Shown here: piece after piece, positions 4,909 to 22,481 of the stretch
How positions within the stretch are numbered: position 1 is the first letter of the stretch
How the letters are laid out: each line of letters opens with the position of its first letter
The notes under the pieces: model-generated
The model's database searches: none
Seen by the model: only the letters and a program-made list of their open reading frames with translations
What the model was told of the DNA's origin: nothing
IMG/VR virus record: IMGVR_UViG_3300001846_000219
DNA length: 64,000 nucleotides
Reading direction: 5' to 3' (one strand)
DNA from: a virus
Translations under genes and position numbers: made by a program

Positions 4909-5042
4909 TCTGCGAAGTTAAAATGTTTGTCGGTGGACAAGTTTTCATTGAAACTGTTCACGCTCGCAACTATGAAGAGGCACGGGAAGTTGCTAAAGCA
5001 AGGAATCCCAATGCACAAGTAATCGGAGTTAATGCAAAGTAA
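4905..5042 (+). CDS. Small conserved cyanophage protein (45 aa, not in the track)
   Basis: MICEVKMFVGGQVFIETVHARNYEEAREVAKARNPNAQVIGVNAK; ATGA and TAATG overlaps. Confidence 0.7.
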   Translation: MICEVKMFVGGQVFIETVHARNYEEAREVAKARNPNAQVIGVNAK

Positions 5043-5516: not shown

Positions 5517-5517
5517 T

Positions 5518-5575
5518 GTGACAGTTAGGAAACCTGCACAGGGCGCTTGACTTTTGGTTGGGCGTCCTTTATATT
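5518..5575 (+). promoter_or_regulatory. Early promoter element 1 (imperfect palindrome plus sigma70 -35/-10)
   Basis: GTGACAGTT-N4-AACCTGCAC, then TTGACT (5547)-17 bp-TATATT (5570). Confidence 0.8.
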
Positions 5576-5597
5576 ATATTCATACCAAACAAAACGG

Positions 5598-6842
5598 ATG
5601 ACGATCACTCTTCGCCCTCATCAAGTTCGTGCTCTCGATGCAATGCAGCAGAACGATAAGGGTCAAATTATTGTACCAACTGGCGGTGGCAAAACATTCA
5701 TAATGATTCAGGATTGTCTGCGTCGTTTGCAGTCTGGTCCTAAGACTATTGTTGTTGTTGCTCCCCGTATTCTGCTCGCTAATCAACTCTGTGACGAGTT
5801 TATGCAGCAGATCAGTGCAACTTGGACTCACGTTTGCCACGCTCACAGTGGCGAAACTCACTTCTTCAGCAGCACCAAACCTGAGAAGATTGCTCTGTTC
5901 GTGAACACTGCACGAGCAGCAAATGAGTCTGCTATCGTATTCACCACTTACCACAGTTTGCGTCGTGTTGTCGATTCTGGCATTGGCATTGATTGTGCTT
6001 ATTTTGACGAAGCGCATAACTCTGTCCAAAAAAGTTTCTTTGTTGCTACTGCTGCTGTTAGCGATATTAGTGATAAAACCTATTATTTTACTGCTACTCC
6101 TCGCCATAATCGTCGTGATGGGCGCGGTATGAACAATGCTGAGATCTATGGTCCTGTCATTGAGAACGTGCCTGCACCAGAACTTATCAACAACGGCAGC
6201 ATCATTCCTCCCACTATTGTACCTTTTGAGATTGATCTCAATCGTGACAAGAAGCAAGCACATCACGCCGATGCTGCTACTGTTCAGGGTGTGATTGACA
6301 GTCTTGATGATACCCACGCTGCAAAGGTTCTTGTTGCTGTGCCTAGCAGTAAGATCCTTGGCAATATGATTGGGCAGACAGATTTGCTTGATCAACTCAA
6401 AGAGCGTGGTTATGATGTGCTCCACGTTACCTCTAAGTTTGGTGCATATGTCAACCAAAAGAAGGTCAACCGTGAGCAATTCTTTGAGACTCTGACTGAG
6501 TGGGGCAAAGATCCTGAGCGTAAGTTTGTCATCTTCCACTATTCTATTCTGTCGGAAGGTATCAACGTGCCTGGATTGACTCACACCATTCTTCTTCGCA
6601 ACCTGCAAATTGTGGAGATGGCACAGACTATTGGTCGTGTGATTCGTCTGAATCGTGATGACGCTGCTGGTATTGCTGCTGGCACGATTACACCTGGTCA
6701 GTTCGGTATGTATAAGAAACCCACTGGTTTCGTGACTGTACCTGTCTACCAGAACTATGGCAAGCAGGTATCAGAGCGCCTGCAACGTGTTGTTGACGCT
6801 ATCTTTATCAAAGGTGTGCCCCCTGAGTCTTTCGTTGCATAA
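5598..6842 (+). CDS. Superfamily 2 DEAD/DEAH-like helicase (type III Res-like ATPase core)
   Basis: LRPHQ Q-motif, PTGGGKT, DEAH, TATP, SEGINVP, QTIGRVIR. ATG at 5598 lies downstream of the promoter. Confidence 0.9.
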   Translation: MTITLRPHQVRALDAMQQNDKGQIIVPTGGGKTFIMIQDCLRRLQSGPKTIVVVAPRILLANQLCDEFMQQISATWTHVCHAHSGETHFFSSTKPEKIALFVNTARAANESAIVFTTYHSLRRVVDSGIGIDCAYFDEAHNSVQKSFFVATAAVSDISDKTYYFTATPRHNRRDGRGMNNAEIYGPVIENVPAPELINNGSIIPPTIVPFEIDLNRDKKQAHHADAATVQGVIDSLDDTHAAKVLVAVPSSKILGNMIGQTDLLDQLKERGYDVLHVTSKFGAYVNQKKVNREQFFETLTEWGKDPERKFVIFHYSILSEGINVPGLTHTILLRNLQIVEMAQTIGRVIRLNRDDAAGIAAGTITPGQFGMYKKPTGFVTVPVYQNYGKQVSERLQRVVDAIFIKGVPPESFVA

Positions 6843-6876
6843 ATAATGCTGAGAACCAACAACTTTGAGTAAGTAA

Positions 6877-7296
6877 ATGGCAACCGAAACTGTTAATGGA
6901 TGGGCAGATCTTCTGCTTGCTAAACTCGCTGAGAAAGCAAAAGCATATCGTCTCGCTAACATCACCGAAAGAATGAATGGCAGTGTCGGAACAACAACTG
7001 CCATCGCAATCAATGCGAGTAATGATGTGTTCCGTCGCAAACTTGATAAAGTTCAGAATGATCATCCTGATGTGACCTGGGTATTCACGAAGGAAGCAAA
7101 TGATGCTGGTGATATTGTCATCAAAGCACAGGCACCTGTTGATAGAGGTGGGCACCTGAAAGTGTGGGGTATTGTTGATGGCGAGAGCGGTCAAGTTAAA
7201 CCCAGTGGTGGATCTTATGTGGATGGTAACAGTCTTGATGATACCTATCGCGAAGCATTTTTCACTAAATTGAATCACCTGGGCACATTCTGGTGA
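6877..7296 (+). CDS. Hypothetical protein
   Basis: 139 aa; ends 5 nt before promoter element 2. Confidence 0.7.
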   Translation: MATETVNGWADLLLAKLAEKAKAYRLANITERMNGSVGTTTAIAINASNDVFRRKLDKVQNDHPDVTWVFTKEANDAGDIVIKAQAPVDRGGHLKVWGIVDGESGQVKPSGGSYVDGNSLDDTYREAFFTKLNHLGTFW

Positions 7297-7301
7297 CCCT
7301 T

Positions 7302-7359
7302 GTGCCAGTTGCATAAACTGTCCACCTTACCGCCCTTAGGGGCGGTTTTCGTGTATTCT
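7302..7359 (+). promoter_or_regulatory. Early promoter element 2
   Basis: GTGCCAGTT-N4-AAACTGTCCAC; -10 TATTCT at 7354; followed by ATAAGAGTCAAA. Confidence 0.8.
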
Positions 7360-7384
7360 ATAAGAGTCAAAGGAACAGAGAGCA

Positions 7385-7654
7385 ATGCAACTCCTACCAA
7401 ACGCAATCGTATCGGCAACCTATCGCCGTGAGATTCGCTTTTTCTTCGATGATGATACCTCTGCGAGCGAGTTCAAAACTATCGAGAAACTGACCTCTTT
7501 TCCTGATTCTGGTGATGTTCGCCGCCTCACTCTTCGTGAGTGGCAGGAGATGAATCCTTCCATCGTTCGTATGACTTTCAACGACACTCCTGTGCTCGTC
7601 GATAACACTCCCGACCAGATTGCACGTTTCAAAGTAGCAAACCTCTCCCGATGA
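7385..7654 (+). CDS. Hypothetical early protein
   Basis: First gene after element 2. Confidence 0.7.
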   Translation: MQLLPNAIVSATYRREIRFFFDDDTSASEFKTIEKLTSFPDSGDVRRLTLREWQEMNPSIVRMTFNDTPVLVDNTPDQIARFKVANLSR

Positions 7655-7800
7655 TTACTAACGAAGACCGAGAGTTTGTTAACTTTTTGTTTGGCAAACT
7701 CTTCACTCACACTGACACTGATATGATTGATCTTCACGACTCTGATAGTTGCGATGATCATTTAATGTTCACTCAACTAGAACTCGATGTCCCCCACTAA
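7651..7800 (+). CDS. Small hypothetical protein (49 aa, not in the track)
   Basis: MITNEDREFVNFLFGKLFTHTDTDMIDL...; ATGA overlap. Confidence 0.65.
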   Translation: MITNEDREFVNFLFGKLFTHTDTDMIDLHDSDSCDDHLMFTQLELDVPH

Positions 7801-7990
7801 AGAACAACTAATCGAAGCACTTTACAATGAATATGCATTTCTTTGTCACGATGACTTTGATCCCAAAGAGGATATGTCTATCGAAGAATACCTTGAAATG
7901 TTGAAAGAATTGGACTATGATGAGTTAGTCGAAGAGACTGGAACTGACGAAACTTTTACCCTTGAGGAGTTTATTAACGCTTATGTCTGA
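7787..7990 (+). CDS. Acidic hypothetical protein
   Basis: 67 aa, very D/E-rich. Confidence 0.7.
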   Translation: MSPTKEQLIEALYNEYAFLCHDDFDPKEDMSIEEYLEMLKELDYDELVEETGTDETFTLEEFINAYV

Positions 7991-8147
7991 ATCTATCCTG
8001 ATTGAAATGAAGGAGTGTTTGTATGACAAATGCTTGCAAGATGTTGACCTGTTGAGTGCTGTCATCGACGAGTATGTTAACACTATGAGTGACAGCAAAC
8101 TCGATGAACTTTACGACTTTCTTACTAACAATTTCGGAGACGACTGA
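7983..8147 (+). CDS. Acidic hypothetical protein
   Basis: ATG at 7983 in the 7962 frame. Confidence 0.65.
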   Translation: MSESILIEMKECLYDKCLQDVDLLSAVIDEYVNTMSDSKLDELYDFLTNNFGDD

Positions 8148-8272
8148 TGCCTGAAACCTACGCTTTTTCTGGTGATGCTGTTACCTTCCTTGGTTTGGTT
8201 GGTGTACTTTCAACGGGCATTATTGTTGTTACTGCTTTTCGCCGTTTCTTTAATTCTCCTTTGAACCGATGA
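8147..8272 (+). CDS. Small single-pass membrane protein (41 aa, not in the track)
   Basis: MPETYAFSGDAVTFLGLVGVLSTGIIVVTAFRRFFNSPLNR; TGATG coupling. Confidence 0.7.
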   Translation: MPETYAFSGDAVTFLGLVGVLSTGIIVVTAFRRFFNSPLNR

Positions 8273-8427
8273 TAGAACCTGAAAGAACAAAAGAACACGT
8301 TGCATTTAACAACTGGATGAAACAATGCCCAGTAGGTTGGACACAACACCAATCACGAGTTGGTATAATGTATCAGTTCAACATTGAGGAGTTAGATCCT
8401 GACGAGTCTAGCGGTGAAGAAGAGTAA
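8269..8427 (+). CDS. Small hypothetical protein (52 aa, not in the track)
   Basis: MIEPERTKEHVAFNNWMKQCPVGW...; ATGA overlap. Confidence 0.55.
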   Translation: MIEPERTKEHVAFNNWMKQCPVGWTQHQSRVGIMYQFNIEELDPDESSGEEE

Positions 8428-8668
8428 AAGGACAACAATTTGGAGACTCTGGGCAAAAGCACTTGGAGAAAAGGCAGGTAAATGTGACAAAGAATCAGAC
8501 TACATTGCTGGTGTACGGACTATTGTATTCGTCACTTATCTTCTCACTAATTGTTTCATTGTGGCAGGGGTAATTAGGCACTGGGATGATAACAAACCTC
8601 CTAGTGTGCCAGTTGGTCAAACTGTCCACCAAACCCCCCAAAGGTGCCCACGGGGTGCCATACTATAA
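8414..8668 (+). CDS. Conserved cyanophage membrane protein, reading through into promoter element 3
   Basis: IWRLWAKALGEKAG...D.IA.VRT..F.TYLLTNCFIVAGVIRHW. Confidence 0.7.
   Translation: MKKSKRTTIWRLWAKALGEKAGKCDKESDYIAGVRTIVFVTYLLTNCFIVAGVIRHWDDNKPPSVPVGQTVHQTPQRCPRGAIL
8606..8664 (+). promoter_or_regulatory. Early promoter element 3
   Basis: GTGCCAGTT-N4-AAACTGTCCAC; TG-C-CATACT with -10 at 8659; ATAAGAGTCAAA. Confidence 0.8.
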
Positions 8669-8688
8669 GAGTCAAACAAAGAGAGCAA

Positions 8689-8925
8689 ATGCAACTCACT
8701 TCACAAGGTCAATCCCGCGCTATGGTTGTTGAGTTTCGTCCTCACAACATTCTCACCGATAAGTTTGTCTACACCCTGAAGTTTATGGGTGATGAGCAAA
8801 CCAAGTCGATGCGATTGATGAACAAGAAAGAGATGATTGAGACTGTAAATGCACGTCTTGATCTTAACTATGAGGTGACTGATTTCCTGACTGAACCTCA
8901 AGAATACTTCCCTTGTGCTTGCTGA
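8689..8925 (+). CDS. Hypothetical early protein
   Basis: ATG at 8689 (MQLTSQGQSRAMVVEFRPH) after element 3. Confidence 0.7.
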   Translation: MQLTSQGQSRAMVVEFRPHNILTDKFVYTLKFMGDEQTKSMRLMNKKEMIETVNARLDLNYEVTDFLTEPQEYFPCAC

Positions 8926-9011
8926 TGGATGTAACTAATGCATCACTTCTTGCCACCTTTGTTCTACTCATCGGTGGCATTGTTTTCTTCTTCAAAGTAA
9001 CTTACCGATGA
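8925..9011 (+). CDS. Hydrophobic mini-protein (28 aa, not in the track)
   Basis: MDVTNASLLATFVLLIGGIVFFFKVTYR; coupled at both ends. Confidence 0.55.
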   Translation: MDVTNASLLATFVLLIGGIVFFFKVTYR

Positions 9012-9358
9012 CTGCTTTCGCTGATTACGTTGCCCAGCAAGATGCTCGCAACACGATTGAACTTAATATCGTTAAGTATGGTCTGATGCTGTGTGATGCT
9101 CTCCAGCAAGATGCTCCCGATGGTTATCACTACTCCCTTGATTCTTCGGGACGTAAGTATCACAAAGTCTTTATGCACATTGGTGATCGTCGCGACAGTA
9201 TTCACGCCTTCATTGATAAGAAGTCTGGTTCTGTGTATAAACCTGCCAGCGTAAAAGCACCTGCTAAAGGTGAACGTTACAACGTTCTTATTATTGACTC
9301 TCGTGAGGAAATGTTTGAGCGTTGTGATTGGGCGGGAGGTTATCTCTACGCTCGTTGA
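9008..9358 (+). CDS. Conserved T4-like phage early hypothetical protein
   Basis: GRKYHKV...SIHAFIDKKSGSVYKPASVKAPAKGERYN...DWAGGYLY. Confidence 0.8.
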   Translation: MTAFADYVAQQDARNTIELNIVKYGLMLCDALQQDAPDGYHYSLDSSGRKYHKVFMHIGDRRDSIHAFIDKKSGSVYKPASVKAPAKGERYNVLIIDSREEMFERCDWAGGYLYAR

Positions 9359-9397
9359 TACGAACTCTCTCATCATTCACCTTTAATTGTTACTAAA

Positions 9398-9814
9398 ATG
9401 GACACCCGAGTTACCCTGAATCGAGTTGTTAACACTCTGCAATCTGCACTTGATGTTATGACTGACGCAAGCAATCCTGATGGGCAGGGTTATGCTTATG
9501 CCTCTGGATATGCTAGGGGTTCTATGAATCAAGCGATTGATGAGTTGTGTGATCTCCTTGAAAGTATGGAACCCATTCGTTATAGAGTAACTGAGGTGCA
9601 GTTTGACTTTCAAGATGATGATTTTGAACTGCCTGTTCAACAACAACTTGATTTGATCCAAGATTGTAAGAATAGTGTTTGGACTGTTGATGAAGAAACT
9701 GATTTGGTTGATGCTATAACTGATCATTACGGATGGTGCGTCCAAAGTATAGAATATGAGGAGGAGGGTGTGACAGTTCCCGAACCGCCTACCATTCACC
9801 CCTTTTTCCCCTGA
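9398..9814 (+). CDS. Hypothetical protein, C-terminus running into promoter element 4
   Basis: 138 aa; C-terminal half W.VDEE.DLVDAITD.YGWCV.SI.Y resembles a cyanophage family. Confidence 0.65.
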   Translation: MDTRVTLNRVVNTLQSALDVMTDASNPDGQGYAYASGYARGSMNQAIDELCDLLESMEPIRYRVTEVQFDFQDDDFELPVQQQLDLIQDCKNSVWTVDEETDLVDAITDHYGWCVQSIEYEEEGVTVPEPPTIHPFFP

Positions 9815-9827
9815 TGGGTGCCATACT
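9770..9827 (+). promoter_or_regulatory. Early promoter element 4 (right half-site degenerate)
   Basis: GTGACAGTT at 9770; TG-C-CATACT with -10 at 9822; same 52-nt offset as the other copies. Confidence 0.7.
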
Positions 9828-9889
9828 ATAAGGGTCGAGAGGGGGAGAGCAATTCTTTCTCTCTCGGTTCACAATCTTACTTCTTGAAA

Positions 9890-10072
9890 ATGACCAAAGC
9901 ACAAGCACTTGCCGAGTTTCGTATTTGCTGGAAGGGCGTTGTTGATGCCTATCCTAGACTGAAAGGTGACACGGTTTGGAAGCGTGAAGAGTGGAACAAT
10001 TTCACCGATGCACTGTGCAAAGGTGGAGAGATTACTGAGAATCAATATAACAACTGGTCCAACCCTTTCTGA
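9890..10072 (+). CDS. Hypothetical early protein
   Basis: ATG at 9890; the track start at 9818 lies inside the promoter. Confidence 0.7.
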   Translation: MTKAQALAEFRICWKGVVDAYPRLKGDTVWKREEWNNFTDALCKGGEITENQYNNWSNPF

Positions 10073-10078
10073 ACACCA

Positions 10079-10324
10079 ATGAAAAACTTCACTGACAATT
10101 ACTTCAATTTCGTTCAAAAGATGATGTTTCACGTTGCTACCATCCTTGCATTTTGGGTTGGTGTTGTTACTTACGCTGCCAAAGGTGTGCGTGAATGGTA
10201 TAGCAATGGTGGGCAAGAAAGCATCGCATTGTTCACAATGAAGGTGCTGCAATTCATCAACTCAGCATCAGAATCCCTCTACTATTCTGTGGAGGAAACT
10301 GTAGACATTCCCCGAGAGGTGTGA
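10079..10324 (+). CDS. Hypothetical protein with a hydrophobic segment
   Basis: 81 aa; the stop TGA is supplied by the first bases of element 5. Confidence 0.65.
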   Translation: MKNFTDNYFNFVQKMMFHVATILAFWVGVVTYAAKGVREWYSNGGQESIALFTMKVLQFINSASESLYYSVEETVDIPREV

Positions 10325-10378
10325 CAGTTCCCCAAACTGTCCACTAAACCCGCACAGTCCCCTCAAATGCCCTATATT
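10321..10378 (+). promoter_or_regulatory. Early promoter element 5
   Basis: GTGACAGTT-N4-AAACTGTCCAC; TATATT at 10373; downstream GGGG-N6-CCCC hairpin. Confidence 0.8.
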
Positions 10379-10425
10379 GGTCACATCGGGGGGGACTGCT
10401 CCCCACACTTCCTTAAGACTCTCAA

Positions 10426-10653
10426 ATGACTATCACCGTGACCAATCCTGAAGGCAAAAAGTATATCTCTCTCGTGGAAGATCGTGCTTTTATGAGTGCA
10501 ATTCAAGGACTCTACGCTTTCACTGTTGATAACAACGCTGATTGCGATATGGCATACGATTGGGTATGCGATCAGGCAGAATGTCACTCCTTTGTTTGTG
10601 ACGGTCCCGCGTGGGATTTGTTCTACGATACCTGGGAATTTGCACACTCCTGA
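10426..10653 (+). CDS. Hypothetical early protein
   Basis: 75 aa; first gene after element 5. Confidence 0.7.
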   Translation: MTITVTNPEGKKYISLVEDRAFMSAIQGLYAFTVDNNADCDMAYDWVCDQAECHSFVCDGPAWDLFYDTWEFAHS

Positions 10654-10700
10654 TGTATTCTGATCCCTGCACAATCGCCCTTCAAACTGATAACAAACTG

Positions 10701-10880
10701 ATGACAATTCACAATCCCTACGTTGCAACTCTCGTTGAAATGGGTTACGACGAAGCAGACTGCCAAATGGTAGCAAATGCTGGTGTTAAGTCTAACTATC
10801 CTCGCACGATTCACGGTCGAGTTTTTAACACTGAAGCAGAGTACAAAGAGGCACTTGCTGACTACATCAACGGACTCTGA
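10701..10880 (+). CDS. Conserved cyanophage hypothetical protein
   Basis: MTIHNPYVATLVEMGYDEADC...YPRTIHGRVF; an alternative start lies at 10654. Confidence 0.65.
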   Translation: MTIHNPYVATLVEMGYDEADCQMVANAGVKSNYPRTIHGRVFNTEAEYKEALADYINGL

Positions 10881-10881
10881 G

Positions 10882-11049
10882 ATGATTACTTCCAAAGCAC
10901 AAATGCTCAAAATCATTGCAACTTGTGCTCAACCACATACTCTAACCCGAGAGGAAAAGTTTCAGGTTTTTGTCAACGTGTGTGACAATATGCTTGCTGA
11001 GGGTAGACTGAGCAAAGCAAATCACAAACGTTGGACTAACGTTTTCTGA
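10882..11049 (+). CDS. Hypothetical early protein
   Basis: ATG at 10882 (MITSKAQMLKII...RWTNVF). Confidence 0.7.
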   Translation: MITSKAQMLKIIATCAQPHTLTREEKFQVFVNVCDNMLAEGRLSKANHKRWTNVF

Positions 11050-11076
11050 TCTAATCAACCACACTTCCTTAATACA

Positions 11077-11445
11077 ATGCTGGTCAAACTTTCCTTCCCG
11101 TCTAAAACCAAGAAGACTACTTGCATCGCAGTTTATGAGTTTGCAGATGGGCGAACTCTCGATGCTTGTGTAGCAACTCTGAAGGCAACTAACGCTAAAA
11201 GAGCAAACAAAGAGACCACAACTTTCGAGGTGATTGATTCTCACTCTGGTCCTATCTATCGGTGGGATACTAATGCTAACAAGTTTGTGAGTGAGCGTAA
11301 GCAACTCGAACGTGCTTACTTTACAACCAAGGTGCAAGAATATCGTGCTGTGGTTGATAAAGTTATTGATGATAAAATCTCCGAGTTCTTTACTGAATGG
11401 ATGGAAGATTATCGCCTTTTGCATAAACCAATGGGTGCTGTGTGA
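11077..11445 (+). CDS. Hypothetical protein
   Basis: 122 aa; the stop lies within element 6. Confidence 0.7.
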   Translation: MLVKLSFPSKTKKTTCIAVYEFADGRTLDACVATLKATNAKRANKETTTFEVIDSHSGPIYRWDTNANKFVSERKQLERAYFTTKVQEYRAVVDKVIDDKISEFFTEWMEDYRLLHKPMGAV

Positions 11446-11498
11446 CAGTTGGACAACCTGCACACAAAATAAGCACGGCACCCCAGATCCTGTATTGT
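11442..11498 (+). promoter_or_regulatory. Early promoter element 6
   Basis: GTGACAGTT-N4-AACCTGCAC; TATTGT at 11493; ATAAGAGTCAAA. Confidence 0.8.
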
Positions 11499-11523
11499 AT
11501 AAGAGTCAAAGGAATTGCCCCAA

Positions 11524-12024
11524 ATGACGACACAAACTCCTGAAGCACGTTTCCAACAACTTTTCGAGGAAATGTATGCTCTATGTGATGAGCAAGGTTG
11601 GGGAGATCCCTTCTCTTATGCTCGCTCCCGTGAGATTCACTTAGCAGGCGTTCTTGGACATAAAGTTGCAGACACCTATTCTGGTGCTGATGCTTATGAC
11701 GAAGATGGTCCCTGTGAGTATAAATCTACGATCGGTGACAAACTAACTGCAACGTACAACGGCATTAGTGTACAGAACTCGTGGGAGGAGCAAGAGCGTT
11801 ACTTGATCGAAGATAAGATCGGTAAGTATCAGAATCATTATTTCGGTCGTTACTCTAACGGCAAGATTGTTGAGGTTTGGAAGATGGATGCTAACGATGT
11901 TCTTGCTGTTCTGCTACCTCAACTGAAGAAGAAGTTTGGTACAGTCAAGAACCGCAAAGATCCTCGTCTGGGTTACACTATCTCTAACAAGGTTATCCGA
12001 CAATTTGCTACCCAAATCATCTGA
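11524..12024 (+). CDS. PD-(D/E)XK endonuclease, PvuII-like (putative)
   Basis: GADAYDEDGPCEYKST matches the recalled PvuII active site GNDAVDNAGQEYELKS; size and flanking patterns are co-linear. Confidence 0.65.
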   Translation: MTTQTPEARFQQLFEEMYALCDEQGWGDPFSYARSREIHLAGVLGHKVADTYSGADAYDEDGPCEYKSTIGDKLTATYNGISVQNSWEEQERYLIEDKIGKYQNHYFGRYSNGKIVEVWKMDANDVLAVLLPQLKKKFGTVKNRKDPRLGYTISNKVIRQFATQII

Positions 12025-12061
12025 CTCTCGTTTCACCTCTCACCGTCACACTTTTCCTCCA

Positions 12062-12241
12062 ATGATGCAAACTTCCATCGACCTCCTTGCTAACACCTAT
12101 ATGGACAGACTGCAAGAGCACGTTGATAACAATGACATCGCATCTTCTGATGCCATCTATACTGAGTTTGTGGTTGATGGTGTAGATCCTGAGGACGGAG
12201 ATTACGAGTGGTTGTTTGTTAATGACCTGATCAACAACTGA
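12062..12241 (+). CDS. Acidic hypothetical protein
   Basis: ATG at 12062 in the 11936 frame. Confidence 0.65.
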   Translation: MMQTSIDLLANTYMDRLQEHVDNNDIASSDAIYTEFVVDGVDPEDGDYEWLFVNDLINN

Positions 12242-12280
12242 TCTCTCTGCTATACTAATCACACCACACATTTCACCTAG

Positions 12281-12571
12281 ATGACAATGACTCTCCTGCA
12301 AATCGACTCCAATCGCCGTAATGATCTCACCGACACTTATGTGTGGGATATGATCAACCAGATGAATAATGATATGCTTGAGCAACTCTGCCACGATTTA
12401 CTTGTGGAGTCTATGACTAATCTTTCTGACTATGAATTGTGTGAGGAAGTGTATGACTACCTGGGGCAATCTGATGAGACTTTCAAAGAGTTTGCTGAGC
12501 AATGTTTGACTGATGATGAGGTTAACTCCTATTTGGATGATGTTAACGTCGTGAGCGAATCTCGCAACTAA
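12281..12571 (+). CDS. Acidic hypothetical protein
   Basis: 96 aa, D/E-rich, helical pattern. Confidence 0.7.
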   Translation: MTMTLLQIDSNRRNDLTDTYVWDMINQMNNDMLEQLCHDLLVESMTNLSDYELCEEVYDYLGQSDETFKEFAEQCLTDDEVNSYLDDVNVVSESRN

Positions 12572-12594
12572 TCGAAGAGAAATCAAGGGGGGTT

Positions 12595-12652
12595 GTGCCA
12601 GTGTAAAGAACTGTCCACTAAAAGCGCACAGCGCCCCGAAATCGGGTATCTT
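12595..12652 (+). promoter_or_regulatory. Early promoter element 7
   Basis: GTGCCAGTG-N5-AACTGTCCAC; TATCTT at 12647; downstream GGGG-N6-CCCC hairpin. Confidence 0.75.
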
Positions 12653-12710
12653 AAGGAAGTGGAGGGGAGCACACCCCACACGCTAACCAAACTCACTCAA
12701 CTTCTTCAAA

Positions 12711-13061
12711 ATGCGTAAGATCGAAAAGCAAATGTGTGCCGCTGTTCAGTCTAACTCTGACTGGAAATCTGGTAACACTCGTGTAGAGTTTATCGCTGAA
12801 ACTGGTGAGTCTAAAGTGTATCTGCACGACAATCTCATCGCTATCATTGATGACACTTCGATGCAAATCTTTGACGGTGGTTGGCAGTCTGTGACCACAA
12901 AATCCCGTCTCAATGCACTTTGCACTGAGTTTTGTGTTGCTGGCGAAGGAGTTTTCCAACGCAACTTTAAGTGGTTCGTTCACAAGTTGGTCGGTCAATC
13001 TTCCATCACTGGTAAAGTCTTCAACGAAGAACCTTTCGTCAACGGTTACATCTTCGCCTGA
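12711..13061 (+). CDS. Conserved phage early hypothetical protein
   Basis: MRKIE..M..A...W...NT.V...VYLH.N.IA...FDGGWQS.TTKSRLNA. Confidence 0.8.
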   Translation: MRKIEKQMCAAVQSNSDWKSGNTRVEFIAETGESKVYLHDNLIAIIDDTSMQIFDGGWQSVTTKSRLNALCTEFCVAGEGVFQRNFKWFVHKLVGQSSITGKVFNEEPFVNGYIFA

Positions 13062-13069
13062 GAGTTAGT

Positions 13070-13255
13070 ATGATCAAAGCACTCACAAAACGCCGTTCTG
13101 CTAACTACTTCGCGAATCAAGTGAAAGTTCTTCTCCTCATTCTGATTGGTGTCCTTATCTATCAATCAAAGGATGCACGATTCTTTATCTCAGACCGCCT
13201 GAATGATGCTTCTGAGATGATCCGTCCCGACCCCCAATTTGAGATCCGTTTCTGA
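13070..13255 (+). CDS. Small membrane-anchored protein
   Basis: VLLLILIGVLIY hydrophobic stretch. Confidence 0.6.
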   Translation: MIKALTKRRSANYFANQVKVLLLILIGVLIYQSKDARFFISDRLNDASEMIRPDPQFEIRF

Positions 13256-13446
13256 TGCAAAACTACCGAGTTCAAGTTGAAACTAACGACGGATGTTGCA
13301 CCATTTGGTATGAAAAAGCAAAACTGAATAAACTGGTTACAATAGATCAGGCAAACGCAAATAATTGCCTGAAGATACAAAACAGAGTCTATAATCAACT
13401 CTGTGGACTGAACATTAAGGAGATTAGCGTTATTCCCAGTGCTTGA
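13255..13446 (+). CDS. Conserved cyanophage hypothetical protein
   Basis: YRVQVETNDGCCTIWYEK...NRVYNQLCGLNIKEISV. Confidence 0.65.
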   Translation: MQNYRVQVETNDGCCTIWYEKAKLNKLVTIDQANANNCLKIQNRVYNQLCGLNIKEISVIPSA

Positions 13447-13471
13447 CAATTACAACTAGATAGTGTACACT
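13443..13471 (+). promoter_or_regulatory. Sigma70-type promoter
   Basis: TTGACA (13443)-17 bp-TACACT (13466). Confidence 0.65.
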
Positions 13472-13472
13472 T

Positions 13473-13498
13473 AGGGGATCAAAACGATCCTCTTTTTT
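13473..13498 (+). terminator. Intrinsic terminator
   Basis: AGGGGATC-AAAAC-GATCCTCT followed by a T run. Confidence 0.65.
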
Positions 13499-13511
13499 AT
13501 TGTCCAAACCA

Positions 13512-14144
13512 ATGAACTTATCTGATAATTTTGAGAACATTGCACAGTCAAATGTCTACGGATTGTTTATGATGCCCGTGGGAGTTTTCCACAATCCAGA
13601 TCATACTGAGCACAAGCAACTTATTCTGGATTATATACAAACTCTCGATTCTGAAACTGTCACCTCAGCACGACAATCTATCTCCCACGGTATTCTCCAA
13701 CTTGGTCCTTCTAATATACTTGACCAACCCGAACTATCTCCAATAAGAGAAACGATCTCACAGGCGATTCTAGACATCAATGCCAACGCTTTTGCATACG
13801 ATCTACAATCCCCAACCATTACAGATTCCGTTTTAGAAGTACATCAAGAAGGATCATTTCTCGCTCCACACGAGTATGCAAACTGTCTCTATTCTGGCAT
13901 CTATTTCATTAACTACGATCGCGAAGAACACTCCCAATTAAAGTTCAAACGCACAATCGCCTCTCCATTCTATTCAATCATTCAAGCACCTCAAACTACA
14001 CAGACTGCCTTTAATCTACTCGATACAAGTGTACCTTACTCAGAAGGAGATATTGTCATTTTCCCGTCTAATCTCTCACACGGGTATGAATCAAACTCTC
14101 ACGCTAATCGTATCACTCTCTCCTTCAACATTCCCCCATTTTAA
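13512..14144 (+). CDS. 2OG-Fe(II) oxygenase-like protein (TIGR02466-like), altered metal motif
   Basis: LAPHEYANCLYSGIYFI, EGDIVIFPSNLSHG, RITLSFN. Confidence 0.75.
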   Translation: MNLSDNFENIAQSNVYGLFMMPVGVFHNPDHTEHKQLILDYIQTLDSETVTSARQSISHGILQLGPSNILDQPELSPIRETISQAILDINANAFAYDLQSPTITDSVLEVHQEGSFLAPHEYANCLYSGIYFINYDREEHSQLKFKRTIASPFYSIIQAPQTTQTAFNLLDTSVPYSEGDIVIFPSNLSHGYESNSHANRITLSFNIPPF

Positions 14145-14146
14145 TA

Positions 14147-14485
14147 ATGAACCCATTCACCAAGATTAACGACAATACGTTCAAAGATAGTGAAGGAACG
14201 TTATACAAACCTATTCCTAATTACGAGGATTATTATGTCTCTAATACAGGAAACATTTACTCCACAAAGTATGGTAAATGGAAACGCCTTAAGACTCATC
14301 TAAATGAGAATGGATACAGGAGAGTTACTCTAAGACAGAATGGGCGGACAGTTGTAAGAAGATGCGCCAGATTAACCGCATTGGCGTTTATACCTACGGA
14401 ACTCAATGATTGCAACGTTTTTCACATCGACGGGAACAAAGTTAACGATCATTCTACTAATCTAAGGTGGGTGAGTTCTGTATAG
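14147..14485 (+). CDS. NUMOD4-HNH homing endonuclease-like protein, C-terminally short
   Basis: YKPIPNYEDYYVSNTGNI (NUMOD4); ALAFIP...FHIDGNKVNDHSTNLRWV. Confidence 0.8.
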   Translation: MNPFTKINDNTFKDSEGTLYKPIPNYEDYYVSNTGNIYSTKYGKWKRLKTHLNENGYRRVTLRQNGRTVVRRCARLTALAFIPTELNDCNVFHIDGNKVNDHSTNLRWVSSV

Positions 14486-14681
14486 TTTTCCACAGGTTTT
14501 TCCACAAAGGGGATTATTTTCTGTGGAATAAAAATGGTCTAATAAATATACCTTACTGTTTTGTTAATCGTGTTAGAATCCCTCTGAGAAGTGCAACCTT
14601 AGACTCTACTCTATCGACAGCGAGTTGTCAACACTCAGAGGACACACGAAAAACTGACACAATGGGTTGACTTTTTCCACA
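14486..14681. repeat. Cluster of TTTTCCACA (DnaA-box-like) motifs
   Basis: Exact copies at 14486, 14498 and 14673; inverted one-mismatch copy TGTGGAATA at 14522. Confidence 0.7.
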
Positions 14682-14695
14682 GTCTCCCTTATACT
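14667..14695 (+). promoter_or_regulatory. Sigma70-type promoter
   Basis: TTGACT (14667)-17 bp-TATACT (14690). Confidence 0.8.
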
Positions 14696-14736
14696 TTCAA
14701 AGTCCCTCAAAGTTAACCAAATTCACCTCTAATCTA

Positions 14737-14931
14737 ATGGGTCGCACATACAAACGGAACGACACTTATAGAAGTAATCGTCCGAAAAGTCTGCGTGAAA
14801 AACGTAATAATCGTCCACGTGGTAAGTATGAACAATTGGACAATTATGAGTCCAGTTCATATAGCAAACAGAACAAGACTAATCGACAACAATCGGAGTA
14901 TGATTTGAATGGAGATGACATCTATGGTTGA
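14737..14931 (+). CDS. Protein with a basic N-terminal half
   Basis: MGRTYKRNDTYRSNRPKSLREKRNNRPRGK. Confidence 0.7.
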   Translation: MGRTYKRNDTYRSNRPKSLREKRNNRPRGKYEQLDNYESSSYSKQNKTNRQQSEYDLNGDDIYG

Positions 14932-15070
14932 CCCTAATGTTATCCAAACTCTAGACACAGATTGGGTAGATGAGATGCTCGAAGATGACTCGGAGGATCT
15001 ATACGAAGAGTCGCTCTATGATGATACATCAGGCATCGAAATTGAGATCGAATACACTACAGACTATTGA
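14915..15070 (+). CDS. Extremely acidic small protein (51 aa, not in the track)
   Basis: MTSMVDPNVIQTLDTDWVDEMLEDDSEDLYEESLYDDTSGIEIEIEYTTDY; 18 D/E and no K/R. Confidence 0.6.
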   Translation: MTSMVDPNVIQTLDTDWVDEMLEDDSEDLYEESLYDDTSGIEIEIEYTTDY

Positions 15071-15252
15071 GTAACTTCGATGCCTATTCGAGACTCTATG
15101 AGGAGGGTAATCTTCCTCCTCAGGAGTTCATCGAGTGGATGCAATATCTGATCGATTGTGAACCCGAACCTGACTACAGTAAGCATAAGAAACTGAGAGA
15201 ATATTGCATCCTCGAAGGGTTATGCTATGATGTCAATGTAGGGGACGATTAG
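15067..15252 (+). CDS. Hypothetical protein (TTG start)
   Basis: 61 aa; overlaps the upstream stop (TTGA). Confidence 0.55.
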   Translation: MSNFDAYSRLYEEGNLPPQEFIEWMQYLIDCEPEPDYSKHKKLREYCILEGLCYDVNVGDD

Positions 15253-15491
15253 ATACACTTGGCGTATATTAAAAGGGGACCCTATGTGTAACCTACAAAA
15301 GTATAGGGTCGAGCATATTATCGAAACCTCTTTGAGGGTCCCCCCATATACAAAAAATTTTTCCCAGGTAAAAATCCCCCAGGAGGTCGTTTAGAATTTC
15401 CCAGTTCCTCTGAGATGAGTCACCTGCAGATAACCTCGGATAATAAAAAAAACTTCCTATATACTGCAAGAATGTAACGGACGGTATCAGA

Positions 15492-15653
15492 ATGTCTCGT
15501 AGGTTTATACTAAGTGTTGAGGAGGACGAACACGGGGATTGTTTCATTACATTACCCGATGAGTTACTTGATGAACTCGGATGGCAAATTGACGATGTTC
15601 TAGAGTATACTGTTGAAGGAGAAAACGTTTATCTCAGTAAAGTTGATGAGTGA
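15492..15653 (+). CDS. AbrB/MazE/SpoVT-like swapped-hairpin DNA-binding protein (53 aa, not in the track)
   Basis: FILSVEEDEHGDCFITLPDELLDELGWQIDDVLEYTVEGENVYLSK; LP.E+...LGW..GD.L pattern. Confidence 0.75.
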   Translation: MSRRFILSVEEDEHGDCFITLPDELLDELGWQIDDVLEYTVEGENVYLSKVDE

Positions 15654-15807
15654 ATTCACTTATGAGCAGCAGAAGTTAATCTTCGATGCTGTGCGGCACT
15701 ATCAAATGAATCATAATGGTTCACAAGCACATTATGACAAGTGTCAGAAACTATTGAACAGTATTGATGTTAGAGTGAGTCACAATGAAGTCGAATGCGA
15801 CATTTGA
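15646..15807 (+). CDS. Hypothetical protein
   Basis: ATG at 15646 (MSEFTYEQQKLIFDAVRHYQMNH). Confidence 0.65.
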   Translation: MSEFTYEQQKLIFDAVRHYQMNHNGSQAHYDKCQKLLNSIDVRVSHNEVECDI

Positions 15808-16336
15808 AGTAATTGACAACTTCCTTCCCAACGAAGTATTCAATACAATATACCAACAGATCACTGGAGATCAGTGTTTTCCTTGGTATTTGAATCACGC
15901 TAAGGTAATGCACGTCAGTCGTATGCTTGATCCTGAGTTACAAGCGAAGGAGATCTACAACTGGCAGATGGTACATAAGTTTTATGAGATGGGTAGACCC
16001 CAGTCCCAGGAATGGGAAATACTTCTCCCACTCATCAATGCTTTACAACCACGTGCTCTAATTCGTATCAAAGCGAATCTAAATCATCACACAGACAATC
16101 TGATTGAATACGATTATCACACAGACTGTGGAGAGTACGGTACAGACCAGTTTGCGGGAGCAACAACTGCTGTATACTATCTCAATGATTGTGATGGTTA
16201 CACGTTCTTTCAGAGTGGTGAGAGAGTGTATTCCAAGGCGAATCGATTAGTCAAATTCCCTGTCAACACACCTCACGCAGGTACATCAACAACTGATGCG
16301 AAATTCAGGTTTGTAATCAATTTGAATTACTTCTGA
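15785..16336 (+). CDS. 2OG-Fe(II) oxygenase superfamily protein
   Basis: VIDNFLP, RIKANL, YHTD (HxD), YYLNDCDGYT, SKANRLVKF...PHAG...RFVINLNYF. Confidence 0.85.
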   Translation: MKSNATFEVIDNFLPNEVFNTIYQQITGDQCFPWYLNHAKVMHVSRMLDPELQAKEIYNWQMVHKFYEMGRPQSQEWEILLPLINALQPRALIRIKANLNHHTDNLIEYDYHTDCGEYGTDQFAGATTAVYYLNDCDGYTFFQSGERVYSKANRLVKFPVNTPHAGTSTTDAKFRFVINLNYF

Positions 16337-16390
16337 ACCGTTACCCCCGCGAACGTTGTAACTATTCTAATGGTAGTAGAGAAAACTCTA

Positions 16391-16419
16391 TTGCCATTTT
16401 TTTATGCTTATGGTATAAC
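16391..16419 (+). promoter_or_regulatory. Sigma70-type promoter with extended -10
   Basis: TTGCCA-17 bp-TATAAC, preceded by TGG. Confidence 0.65.
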
Positions 16420-16444
16420 TATTATTACATTCATACACTAATAT

Positions 16445-17263
16445 ATGAAAACACTGCAACAGCAACTCAATATCGACAACAAAATCGATGCCTATGATTT
16501 TTGGCATCTGTATGAACCCAATTTCAATCAACCACGTAGAAGTAGTGCAAACATTGAGGTTCGTAAATCGATTGGTTTAGACACTGCTCGTCCTGGTGAT
16601 TTAATTACCTCTCTAGAGGGAGAGATGTGGCGTATTGCTATTCACGTTGAGAATGGTCAGGAAGTGACTCTTCCCTGGATGCACGTTTCCAACTTTGGGC
16701 GTGTGATTAGTCACGTGTACCCTAGTGCCACTCAGAAGCGTCTTGGCAAGAGATGGGATCCAACATACCATCGTCTGTGTGACGGCAAGTTGAAGCGTTA
16801 TAGCGGCACCGATGAGAAGACTTCTGGATGGAAGTTACTTATCAAAATGCCTCATATGGGGAAGTTGGAACCAGTGTGGTTGGATGACGAATGTACTGTT
16901 CAAAGTGCAGCATCCAAACGACAGGAGCGTGATATTGCCATTCACACTTTGGTTGCAAATACCTGGTACCCTATCTACGAAAATATACCTGATGTGGATC
17001 CTCGAATGCTGAAAGCATTGAGATGGGATACTGCATCTAAGGAAGATAAATTGTGGATGCAAGAGTTGTTTGAGGTTGATCATAAGGATCAGAACCCATT
17101 AAATAACTATGCCACCAACTTCCGTCGAACTACAGGTAAGGAGAACAATCGTGCAGCACTACGTGCACGTGGAGGCAACCACGCTAATCATCGTGGTACT
17201 ACTATCAATGTTGATGTTGAACCATCCAATAATCTTATGGAGTTGTTTAATGGAAATTCCTGA
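16445..17263 (+). CDS. NUMOD4-HNH homing endonuclease
   Basis: EMWR...VSNFGRV (NUMOD4); IHTLVANTW; EVDHKDQNPLNNYATNFRRTTGKENN. Confidence 0.8.
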   Translation: MKTLQQQLNIDNKIDAYDFWHLYEPNFNQPRRSSANIEVRKSIGLDTARPGDLITSLEGEMWRIAIHVENGQEVTLPWMHVSNFGRVISHVYPSATQKRLGKRWDPTYHRLCDGKLKRYSGTDEKTSGWKLLIKMPHMGKLEPVWLDDECTVQSAASKRQERDIAIHTLVANTWYPIYENIPDVDPRMLKALRWDTASKEDKLWMQELFEVDHKDQNPLNNYATNFRRTTGKENNRAALRARGGNHANHRGTTINVDVEPSNNLMELFNGNS

Positions 17264-17489
17264 GTTTGAATCTTATCAAGAAGAACTTGAGTGGAGATTT
17301 GATCGTATTGCTGAGACTTTGAAGGTATTAGCAGAACGTAGTCAACGTGCAGAACAGTTTCTGAGCAGGGGTGCTGATATGATTCAGTACAAGATTCCTG
17401 GACACGACGAGTATTCCAATCTAAAAGGGATCTTTGATGATCTCTATATGCGAATAAATACTCTGGAAGAGAAACTAAATGGTGACTAA
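17250..17489 (+). CDS. Conserved T4-like cyanophage hypothetical protein
   Basis: ATG at 17250 (MEIPEFESYQEEL...MIQYKIPGHDEY). Confidence 0.7.
   Translation: MEIPEFESYQEELEWRFDRIAETLKVLAERSQRAEQFLSRGADMIQYKIPGHDEYSNLKGIFDDLYMRINTLEEKLNGD
17454..17460 (+). promoter_or_regulatory. T4-type late promoter
   Basis: ATAAATA about 30 nt upstream of the first structural gene. Confidence 0.65.
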
Positions 17490-22479: not shown

Positions 22480-22481
22480 AA

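What the first reader, a model, noticed from the sequence alone, without database searches (positions are those of the whole stretch)
11524..12024. Early-expressed PvuII-like restriction endonuclease with no neighbouring methyltransferase
Seen: a 166-aa protein placed first behind early element 6, with GADAYDEDGPCEYKST (D56/E65/K67). Known (recalled): PvuII (157 aa; D58/E68/K70; cuts CAGCTG) has YQDLALKHGINDIF...GNDAVDNAGQEYELKS...IAKY...FAIYRG.AIEAIYRL. The phage protein has MYALCDEQGWGDPF...GADAYDEDGPCEYKS...IGKY...FGRYSNGKIVEVWKM, co-linear over the full length. No MTase gene is nearby. Inference: this is a site-specific nuclease for host chromosome degradation or competitor exclusion, with self-protection by sequence avoidance. 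I noticed no CAGCTG in the window, and its AGCT core is depleted.
Basis: partly seen in the sequence, partly recalled or inferred. Interest (0 to 1): 0.85.

Follow-up and report, generated by a model that had tools for sequence, protein, structure and literature searches.

The report
Orphan restriction enzyme in CATG-free cyanophage
This marine cyanophage gene encodes a true relative of the restriction enzyme PvuII that has lost its usual partner methylase, and the phage appears to protect itself by having no CATG anywhere in its DNA, so the enzyme most likely cuts CATG (not PvuII's CAGCTG) in host or rival DNA.

Summary
The ORF at 11524-12024 is real and encodes a 166-aa PvuII-fold PD-(D/E)XK endonuclease. 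A family profile hits PvuII at E=1.3e-8. The model matches PvuII at Z 14.6. D56/E65/K67 align with PvuII D58/E68/K70. A homodimer is predicted. PvuII's base-contacting residues are not kept.

No methyltransferase lies in the window. In 56 of 80 related viral loci, a 176-aa NPPF methyltransferase sits about 23 nt downstream of the nuclease. That gene is missing from the window's clade.

CAGCTG absence and AGCT depletion are real but uninformative. All sampled marine cyanomyoviruses avoid RGCY and CCGG, with or without this gene. CAGCTG also occurs in a related nuclease-only genome.

The word that tracks the gene is CATG:
- 0 observed against about 3,900 expected in 751 kb of nuclease-only genomes, including near-complete genomes of 172-187 kb.
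- O/E 0.17 in nuclease-plus-methylase loci.
- O/E 0.45 in phages without the gene.
- Host DNA carries 2.7-4 CATG per kb.

Best reading (confidence about 0.6): an orphan CATG cutter, with self-protection by complete loss of the site.

Caveat: the methylase-less state is essentially one clade. A truncated I-HmuI-like HNH gene is inherited with it.

The scan reached the same reading earlier on another genome (e1-5320701, e1-5320700).

The parts
11524..12024 (+). Gene for the 166-aa PvuII-fold restriction endonuclease (catalytic D56, E65, K67); stop codon included
   Evidence: ORF. (12 of 30 homologs hit PF09225; P0026 scores 26.8 against the cut-off of 25). (profile against PvuII, E=1.3e-8). (model pLDDT 92.3; Foldseek prob 1.0; Z 14.6). 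(homodimer). (omega 0.05-0.15; 60 invariant positions).
11436..11523 (+). PeSL-like regulatory cassette 6: hairpin at 11439-11466, -10-like TATAAG at 11498-11503, AAGGA ribosome-binding site about 10 nt before the ATG
   Evidence: seven aligned cassettes. (hairpins of -5.9 to -12.8 kcal/mol). (sequence). Likeness to PeSLs of T4-type phages is from PMC2839356 and PMC4122927. Promoter activity and timing are inferred.
12061..12571 (+). Two small ORFs (60 aa at 12061-12241; 96-aa DUF7326 at 12281-12571) between the nuclease gene and the next cassette at 12595. They occupy the place where relatives carry the methyltransferase. Neither is a methyltransferase.
   Evidence: tblastn with the gp051-like methyltransferase finds nothing in the window.
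1..64000 (.). The whole window lacks CATG (0 against 386 expected), the inferred recognition site. Avoidance is enforced at synonymous sites in all three codon phases.
   Evidence: (His CAT 0 and CAC 49 before a G; codon before ATG ends in C 0 of 109 times; 0 of 1262 xCA codons are followed by TGx).
14147..14485 (+). 112-aa truncated I-HmuI-like HNH protein, inherited together with the methylase-less CATG-free clade. It is a confounder, not part of the proposed mechanism.

Best explanation
The gene encodes an active, homodimeric Type IIP restriction endonuclease of the PvuII fold. Its ancestors formed a two-gene restriction-modification cassette with a small NPPF (adenine-type) DNA methyltransferase placed directly downstream. 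In the phage clade that holds this window the methyltransferase was lost and the nuclease was kept under purifying selection.

The enzyme most likely recognises the palindrome CATG. The phage is immune because its genome holds no CATG at all. Any unmethylated CATG-bearing DNA in the infected cell would be cut. That includes the host chromosome (about one site per 250-370 bp) and co-infecting phages.

Shown here: fold, homology, catalytic residues, cassette context in relatives, loss of the methylase, and the CATG statistics.

Inferred: the identity of the site, nuclease activity, early timing, and the biological target.
For: Fold and homology:
- A profile of 42 family members hits PvuII chains at E=1.3e-8 over the full length. 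D56/E65/K67 fall on D58/E68/K70.
- The AF2 model has pLDDT 92.3. The top 12 Foldseek hits are PvuII. VIA gives Z 14.6, rmsd 3.3, 148 residues aligned.
- A 69%-identical homolog passes the Pfam PF09225 cut-off.
- Homodimer: ipSAE 0.56 against a best control of 0.00. That mark was reached by 21 of 30 known homodimers and 0 of 23 monomers. The runs share at least 93% of contacts and partner pLDDT is at least 87. The interface uses N-terminal helices 5-48. This may reflect likeness to solved PvuII dimers.

Cassette:
- In P-TIM68 the gene is flanked by two methyltransferases.
- 56 of 80 viral loci carry an intact gp051-like NPPF methyltransferase, usually 23 nt downstream. It belongs to PHROG 799, 'DNA methyltransferase'.
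- Among cultured cyanophages this methyltransferase occurs only in the three that carry the nuclease.

Loss of the methylase:
- None is found in the window.
- The near-complete relatives G004, G007 and G008 carry the nuclease but no gp051-like or PF01555 methyltransferase. G004 also has no C5 methyltransferase.
- In all three the only amino-methyltransferase found is one D12 Dam-like enzyme.

CATG counts:
- Nuclease-only DNA, 751 kb: 0 against 3919 expected.
- Nuclease plus methylase: 693 against 4082 (O/E 0.17).
- No nuclease: 516 against 1155 (O/E 0.45).
- CATG is the only 4-6-mer that separates nuclease-only genomes from phages without the nuclease.
- Whole genomes: G004 0/904 and G008 0/852. 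G007 has 12/954, all in the last 2.4 kb of the contig.

Independent sampling through gp25:
- CATG-free loci belong to genomes that turn out to carry the nuclease (G007, G008, G010).
- CATG-bearing contigs show no nuclease gene.

Other support:
- Within the methylase-less clade of the nuclease tree, the one member that has the methylase (L054) has CATG at 9/26.
- Cassette carriers outside that clade are also CATG-poor. The median O/E is about 0.09.
- Purifying selection: omega 0.05-0.15, and 60 positions are invariant in both groups.
- Host flanks are rich in CATG: Prochlorococcus 1484/1771 and Synechococcus/Cyanobium 614/922. The phage psbA segment has 0 CATG where host copies have 6-8.
Against: - No biochemical data exist. 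The site is inferred from genome statistics only.
- All methylase-less nucleases form essentially one clade (99/97 support), so the association rests on about two evolutionary changes, not many.
- Any clade-specific gene shares the pattern. A 112-aa HNH protein is strictly inherited with it.
- The classic CATG cutter NlaIII is an HNH enzyme (PMC2441816).
- CCGG and several 6-mers are also absent from these genomes, so they are formally possible sites.
- Several loci that keep the methylase still have zero CATG. Something besides an unprotected nuclease can therefore drive CATG down.
- The window's own protein gets no Pfam hit.
- Early expression and host-DNA cutting are untested.
Confidence: 0.6

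Rival explanations
1. The nuclease is active but recognises another word that these genomes also lack. Candidates are CCGG, GTCGAC, TGCGCA, ACGCGT or AGGCCT, which all marine cyanomyoviruses avoid. In that case losing the methylase cost nothing. The total loss of CATG in this clade would then be due to a different agent, such as a host CATG restriction system or another clade-specific phage gene like the I-HmuI-like HNH protein.
For: - CCGG is 0 in every group, including phages without the nuclease. Several 6-mers are also absent everywhere.
- The HNH gene has exactly the phyletic pattern of CATG loss.
- NlaIII, the classic CATG cutter, is an HNH enzyme (PMC2441816).
- The methylase-less state is one clade.
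Against: - It needs two unrelated events to coincide in one clade.
- The adjacent methylase has an NPPF motif, typical of adenine methylases, and CCGG has no adenine (general knowledge).
- In P-SSM2 and P-TIM68, which carry nuclease and methylase, CATG is present and CCGG still absent.
- Cassette carriers without the HNH gene are still strongly CATG-poor.
- The HNH protein matches only the N-terminal half of I-HmuI, a long-target nicking homing endonuclease. In all lineages it ends before the helix of the HNH finger.
Confidence: 0.2
2. An ordinary restriction-modification system whose methylase is merely unlinked. The D12 Dam-like methyltransferase elsewhere in the genome, or some other DNA modification, would protect the phage. 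Site avoidance would then be irrelevant to this enzyme.
For: - G004, G007 and G008 each carry one D12-class methyltransferase.
- In P-SSM2 the gp051-like methylase lies 6.6 kb from the nuclease, so linkage can be loose.
- The rest of the window's own genome is not held.
Against: - The D12 enzyme also occurs in P-SSM2 alongside gp051, and a dam gene is annotated in P-SSM4, which lacks the nuclease. It therefore does not track the nuclease.
- The nuclease's regular neighbour is gp051, not D12.
- This reading leaves the complete absence of CATG unexplained.
Confidence: 0.07
3. The protein is not a nuclease of unmodified DNA. It would be either a modification-dependent enzyme like the PvuII-fold NhoI and Eco15I, or an inactive DNA-binding relic.
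For: NhoI and the Eco15I N-domain are the next-best structural matches (Z 9.3-10.8).
Against: - A methyl-dependent nuclease next to a methylase in 56 of 80 loci would be suicidal.
- The catalytic D, E and K are invariant in 82 sequences, and omega is 0.05-0.15.
- PvuII matches clearly better than NhoI (Z 14.6 against 10.8).
Confidence: 0.05
4. One reading: a PvuII isoschizomer that cuts CAGCTG, with protection by avoidance of CAGCTG and AGCT.
For: CAGCTG is 0 against 13 expected, and AGCT is 15 against 168 expected, in the window.
Against: - AGCT/RGCY depletion is equally strong in phages without the gene: S-WAM1 9/148 and P-SSM4 23/164.
- Given that depletion, only 0.4 CAGCTG are expected in the window.
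- CAGCTG is present in the nuclease-only genome G003 (5 copies) and in related loci (12/22).
- PvuII's recognition residues D34, H83-H85 and N140/N141 are not conserved.
Confidence: 0.03

Closest known systems
R.PvuII (Type IIP, CAG^CTG; Pfam PF09225; PDB 1pvi, 1f0o and others)
   Same: - Same fold over the whole chain (Z 14.6).
- Same order of elements.
- Same D...E-x-K catalytic triad.
- Similar size (166 against 157 aa).
- Predicted dimer through the N-terminal helices.
   Different: - Only 15-19% identical.
- The base-contacting residues of PvuII are replaced.
- No methylase is linked here, whereas PvuII pairs with a beta-class N4-cytosine methylase.
- The inferred site is the 4-bp CATG, not CAGCTG.
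- Carried by a lytic phage.
Chlorovirus restriction-modification systems (for example R.CviAII/M.CviAII, which act on CATG; recalled from memory) and the marseillevirus GATC system (PMC7253447)
   Same: - Virus-encoded Type II nucleases used offensively.
- Chloroviruses are said to attack host DNA and recycle its nucleotides.
- Marseilleviruses exclude rival viruses (PMC7253447).
   Different: - Those viruses protect themselves by methylation, whereas here the methylase is gone and the site has been deleted from the genome.
- The fold of R.CviAII is unclassified (PMC2441816).
- No homology to it was tested here.
T4 host-DNA breakdown (EndoII/denA, EndoIV/denB, with hydroxymethylcytosine as the self mark)
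   Same: A phage nuclease that destroys host DNA and spares phage DNA through a chemical or sequence difference between the two.
   Different: - T4 marks its own DNA by base substitution.
- Cyanomyoviruses lack denA, denB and ndd (PMC2984593).
- In this clade the self mark would be the absence of one 4-letter word.
NhoI and the Eco15I N-terminal domain (PvuII-fold, methylation-dependent; PDB 8q5n, 8q5o)
   Same: Same fold family (Z 9.3-10.8).
   Different: Those enzymes need methylated targets. The phage enzyme is normally paired with a methylase, so it must be blocked by methylation, not activated by it.
The nuclease-methylase cassette of P-TIM68 (AVU42_gp050/gp051) and the P-SSM2 pair (PSSM2_100.1 plus a methylase at 60138-60638)
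   Same: Orthologous nuclease (49-63% identity) with the same invariant residues.
   Different: Those phages keep the NPPF methylase and keep CATG (O/E 0.32-0.34). The nuclease is annotated only as a hypothetical protein.

Membership tests
PD-(D/E)XK nuclease superfamily | Alpha/beta core fold with the catalytic D...(D/E)-x-K motif on the central strands | tested here: met
   Model pLDDT 92.3. PvuII, Hjc, RecU and DpnI are the structural matches. D56, E65 and K67 are invariant in 82 sequences.
PvuII family (Pfam PF09225) | Sequence-level homology to PvuII over the full length | tested here: met
   The family profile hits PvuII at E=1.3e-8, positions 10-165 against residues 14-157. Twelve of 30 homologs hit PF09225 and one passes the cut-off. 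The window's own protein alone gets no Pfam hit.
PvuII family (Pfam PF09225) | PvuII's base-recognition residues (D34, S81-H85, N140/N141), which specify CAGCTG | tested here: not met
   The alignment gives Y32 for D34 and S82 for S81 (kept). T82 and H83-H85 are replaced by V83, Q84, N85 and S86. An invariant KDPR replaces the DINN region. It is therefore not an isoschizomer.
PvuII family (Pfam PF09225) | Homodimer formed through the N-terminal helices | tested here: met
   ipSAE 0.56 against a best control of 0.00. The mark was reached by 21 of 30 known pairs and 0 of 23 single chains. The interface is residues 5-48. The pass may come from likeness to solved PvuII dimers.
Type II restriction-modification system | A cognate methyltransferase gene linked to the nuclease gene | tested here: not met
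   None is found in 64 kb. The feature is met in relatives: 56 of 80 loci have the gp051-like gene, usually 23 nt downstream.
Type IIP restriction endonuclease | Mg-dependent double-strand cleavage within a short palindromic site | not testable with these tools
   The site (CATG) is inferred from genome statistics only.
Modification-dependent PvuII-fold nucleases (NhoI, Eco15I) | Cleavage requires methylated target bases | tested here: inconclusive
   Structural likeness is Z 9.3-10.8. Regular pairing with a methylase argues against membership. There is no direct test.

The most novel reading that the evidence does not exclude
A whole clade of marine T4-like cyanophages tells self from non-self by deleting one 4-letter word. 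Having lost the methylase of an ancestral restriction-modification cassette, they keep an orphan 4-bp cutter that shreds host DNA (and rival phage DNA) at CATG. Their own 170-190 kb genomes hold no CATG. This would be the 'as yet un-described method' of host-DNA breakdown in cyanomyoviruses, which lack T4's denA, denB and ndd (PMC2984593).
Probability: 0.35. Interest if true: 0.85.

Novelty: new variant of a known kind. Interest (0 to 1): 0.72.

Why it matters
- Restriction enzymes are expected to come with a protecting methylase. Phages are known to lose sites to escape host enzymes.
- Here the logic appears inverted. A lytic phage keeps the nuclease, drops the methylase, and survives by purging the site from about 180 kb of DNA (about 900 sites expected).
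- If confirmed, this gives a simple sequence-only way to tell self from non-self. It is also a candidate answer to how cyanomyoviruses, which have unmodified DNA and none of T4's host-DNA nucleases, could destroy host DNA or exclude competitors.
- It may also yield a new small 4-bp cutter of the PvuII fold. If it cuts centrally like PvuII, it would leave blunt CA^TG ends. That is speculation.
- The claim is directly testable with one expressed protein and two DNA substrates.

Tried and rejected
Searches with the single protein
- It finds nothing in Pfam, NCBIfam or the PDB by sequence. The close-family profile A1 also misses PvuII. Only the broader profile A2 reaches it.
- PHROG 35715 carries no function.

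Sites considered and set aside
- CAGCTG and AGCT are not specific to carriers of the gene.
- CCGG, GTCGAC, TGCGCA, ACGCGT and AGGCCT are absent in all cyanomyoviruses sampled, so they say nothing about this gene.
- GACGTC is excluded because G008 has 21 copies.

Methylases
- The PF01555 methylase (gp049-like) is not the protector of CATG. Loci that have it but lack gp051 still have 0 CATG.
- It is not especially close to M.PvuII.

Data limits
- The window's own whole genome is not held.
- The nearest record, G001, starts only 2.5 kb upstream of the gene.

Expression
- Four metatranscriptome runs from one study hold the stretch, but only as contigs. The runs also hold multi-kb contigs (up to 15.7 kb), so DNA carry-over cannot be excluded and no transcript start is visible. 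This is not evidence of expression.
- The simple sigma-70 scan around the gene gives no more sites than shuffled sequence.

Separating the nuclease from the co-inherited HNH gene
- This failed. Every HNH-bearing locus is CATG-free, and the nuclease is present wherever there is enough upstream sequence.

Literature
- Searches of the held library found no paper on a cyanophage PvuII-like enzyme or on CATG avoidance.

Full report
**Observation.** The ORF is as described. An ATG at 11524 opens 166 codons that end at the stop at 12022-12024. The protein carries GADAYDEDGPCEYKST, with D56, E65 and K67. It is the first ORF behind one of seven aligned intergenic cassettes. Each cassette is a hairpin followed about 30 nt later by a -10-like TATAAG. 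These resemble the promoter-early stem-loops (PeSLs) of T4-type phages (PMC2839356, PMC4122927). Early timing is therefore an inference, not a result.

**What the protein is.**
- Alone, the protein matches nothing in Pfam, NCBIfam or the PDB by sequence.
- It has 1131 homologs at E<=0.001 in metagenomes. Among cultured phages it occurs only in P-SSM2, P-SSM5 and P-TIM68, annotated as a hypothetical or predicted protein.
- Twelve of 30 homologs hit Pfam PF09225 (Endonuc-PvuII). One, 69% identical to the query, passes the curated cut-off over the full length.
- An exhaustive profile search finds 241 clusters at 50% identity.
- A profile of 42 diverse members hits PvuII chains at E=1.3e-8, positions 10-165 against residues 14-157. 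D56/E65/K67 fall on PvuII D58/E68/K70.
- The AlphaFold model has pLDDT 92.3. Its 12 best Foldseek matches are all PvuII. VIA-align gives Z 14.6, rmsd 3.3 Å over 148 residues. The methyl-dependent NhoI and Eco15I come next at Z 9.3-10.8.
- A homodimer through the N-terminal helices (residues 5-48) is supported:
  - ipSAE is 0.56 against a best control of 0.00.
  - The mark was reached by 21 of 30 solved homodimers and 0 of 23 solved monomers.
  - The runs share at least 93% of contacts, and partner pLDDT is at least 87.
  - The pass may reflect likeness to solved PvuII dimers.
- The residues with which PvuII reads CAGCTG are not kept. D34 becomes Y32. H83-H85 become Q84, N85 and S86. An invariant KDPR replaces the N140/N141 region.
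- It is a true member of the PvuII fold family, but there is no reason to expect PvuII's specificity.

**Context.** The window holds no methyltransferase.
- Pfam scans of 20 ORFs in the first 22 kb find none.
- tblastn with seven methyltransferases of three families finds none.
- A motif IV scan finds no credible hit.

The enzyme is not primitively solitary.
- In P-TIM68 it is flanked by a PF01555 methylase upstream and a 176-aa NPPF methylase (gp051) 13 nt downstream.
- Of 80 IMG/VR loci found with the nuclease, 56 have an intact gp051-like gene, usually 23 nt downstream. Eight have only the PF01555 gene 3-4 kb upstream. The rest, including the window's closest relatives, have neither.
- P-SSM2 keeps gp051 6.6 kb upstream.
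- Among cultured cyanophages, gp051 occurs only in the three that carry the nuclease.
- G004 is a complete genome with terminal repeats (182 kb). G007 (187 kb) and G008 (172 kb) are near-complete. All three carry the nuclease at about 70% identity.
- None of the three has a gp051-like or PF01555 methylase. G004 also has no C5 methylase.
- The only amino-methyltransferase found in them is one D12 Dam-like enzyme.

**Which word is avoided.**
- They are not specific to this gene.
  - All four RGCY words are depleted about tenfold, and CCGG is absent.
  - The same holds in S-WAM1, P-SSM7, Syn9 and P-SSM4, which lack the nuclease.
  - Given the AGCT depletion, only 0.4 CAGCTG are expected in the window.
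  - CAGCTG is present in the nuclease-only genome G003 (5 copies) and in related loci (12 against 22 expected).
- The word that follows the gene is CATG.
  - Nuclease-only DNA, 751 kb: 0 against 3919 expected.
  - Nuclease plus gp051: 693 against 4082 (O/E 0.17).
  - Phages without the nuclease: 516 against 1155 (O/E 0.45).
  - No other 4-6-mer separates nuclease-only genomes from phages without the nuclease.
- Whole genomes agree: G004 0/904 and G008 0/852. G007 has 12/954, all in the last 2.4 kb of the contig, which is probably a chimeric end.
- In the window the avoidance acts at synonymous sites in all three phases.
  - His is never CAT before a G (0 against 49 CAC).
  - No codon before ATG ends in C (0 of 109).
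  - No xCA codon is followed by TGx (0 of 1262).
- A sample seeded with the baseplate protein gp25, not with the nuclease, splits cleanly.
  - L117-L163 have no CATG (one locus has 1).
  - L164-L196 have O/E of about 0.1-0.7.
  - The near-complete CATG-free genomes found this way carry the nuclease and no gp051.
  - CATG-bearing contigs of up to 72 kb show no nuclease gene.
- Host DNA is full of the word.
  - Prochlorococcus flanks: 1484/1771, or 2.7 per kb.
  - Synechococcus/Cyanobium flanks: 614/922, or 4.0 per kb.
  - The phage psbA segment has 0 CATG where host copies have 6-8, at the same number of Met codons.

**Is the nuclease still functional in the methylase-less clade?** Yes, as far as sequence can show.
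- Every copy is full length.
- Sixty positions, including the triad, YNGISVQ and KDPR, are invariant across both groups.
- Where dS can be computed, omega is 0.05-0.15.

**Limits.**
- On the nuclease tree, all methylase-less rows fall in one supported clade (99/97). The association therefore rests on about two changes. The single gp051-bearing member of that clade, L054, does have CATG at 9/26.
- Any gene private to that phage clade shares the pattern. I found one: a 112-aa NUMOD4/HNH_3 protein (14147-14485) that is strictly inherited with it.
- It is a weak candidate for a 4-bp cutter.
  - Its only structural match is the N-terminal half of I-HmuI, a long-target nicking homing endonuclease (42% identity over 92 columns).
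  - In every lineage it ends 1-8 residues after NL(R/K)W, so it lacks the helix of the HNH finger.
- NlaIII, the classic CATG cutter, is an HNH enzyme (PMC2441816). I therefore keep this rival at about 0.2.
- Two points favour the PvuII-like enzyme independently of that clade.
  - Cassette carriers without the HNH gene are themselves very poor in CATG. The median O/E is about 0.09, and 30 of 57 loci are at or below 0.10.
  - The partner methylase has the NPPF motif typical of adenine methylases. That fits CATG and not CCGG.
- Several loci that keep the methylase still have zero CATG, so other pressures on this word exist as well.

**Mechanism proposed.**
- Shown: an ancestral nuclease-methylase cassette sits in the hyperplastic early region, and the methylase has been lost in one clade.
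- Inferred: the clade purged all CATG, either before or along with that loss.
- Inferred: from then on the dimeric nuclease cuts any unmethylated CATG-bearing DNA and spares the phage.
- The target, host chromosome or co-infecting phages, is open. Chloroviruses are said to use their restriction-modification systems against host DNA, and marseilleviruses against rival viruses (PMC7253447).

**Novelty.**
- The held literature has nothing on this.
- I file it as a new variant of a known kind: a Type IIP enzyme of a known fold, in a known kind of viral restriction-modification use, but orphaned and protected by total loss of its site.
- Two earlier notes of this scan reached the same reading on another genome (e1-5320701, e1-5320700). 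I saw them only after my own k-mer results.
- Confidence is 0.9 for the fold and family, about 0.85 for loss of the cassette partner, and about 0.6 for CATG as the site.

Noticed in passing
window 1-64000; also L111-L116, G003-G008: CCGG is completely absent and all RGCY words (AGCT, GGCC, AGCC, GGCT) are about tenfold depleted in every marine cyanomyovirus sampled, with or without the nuclease. Prochlorococcus and Synechococcus flanks carry these words at near-expected levels. The agent is unknown. RGCY is the site type of CviJI-like enzymes.
   Followed up: partly
window 14147-14485: A 112-aa protein equal to the N-terminal half of the homing endonuclease I-HmuI. It is conserved at 56-99% identity in the whole CATG-free clade. 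It always ends just after NL(R/K)W, so it lacks the helix of the HNH finger. Its function is unknown.
   Followed up: partly
G007:C1:185063-187347: All 12 CATG of this 187-kb contig lie in its last 2.4 kb, at normal density. This is probably a chimeric assembly end or a very recent acquisition.
   Followed up: no
L015, L020-L025, L034, L037, L056 (3-4 kb upstream of the nuclease); P-SSM2 43792-44610; P-TIM68 gp049: A PF01555 SPPY methylase (78% identical between P-SSM2 and P-TIM68) travels near the nuclease in some lineages but does not relieve CATG avoidance. Loci that carry it tend to have more AGCT (O/E about 0.1-0.3) than G004, G005 and G008 (0.00-0.03), so it may protect an AGCT-type site. 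G003 is a counter-example.
   Followed up: no
window 5510-12680: Seven PeSL-like cassettes partition the accessory region. Each has a GTGTGACAGTT...AAACTGTCCAC hairpin, then TATAnTATAAGAGTCAAAGG. The nuclease gene looks like one mobile module among them.
   Followed up: partly
L114 (P-SSM4 40590-43188): P-SSM4, which lacks this nuclease, carries a different annotated cluster in the equivalent region: 'restriction endonuclease II', a DNA methyltransferase and dam. Phage-borne restriction-modification cassettes seem to recur at this locus.
   Followed up: no
L026, L027, L032, L033, L063, L076: Where an extra gene of about 1 kb sits between the nuclease and the methylase (gap 968-1170 nt), CATG O/E is the highest of all cassette carriers (0.23-0.70).
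   Followed up: no
G008 whole genome: GACGTC occurs 21 times (29 expected) in G008 but never in the window, G003, G004, G005 or G007. Some 6-mer avoidances are lineage-specific.
   Followed up: no
P0158 (557 aa): One distant family member is fused behind a Zeta-toxin/AAA_33 kinase-like domain.
   Followed up: no
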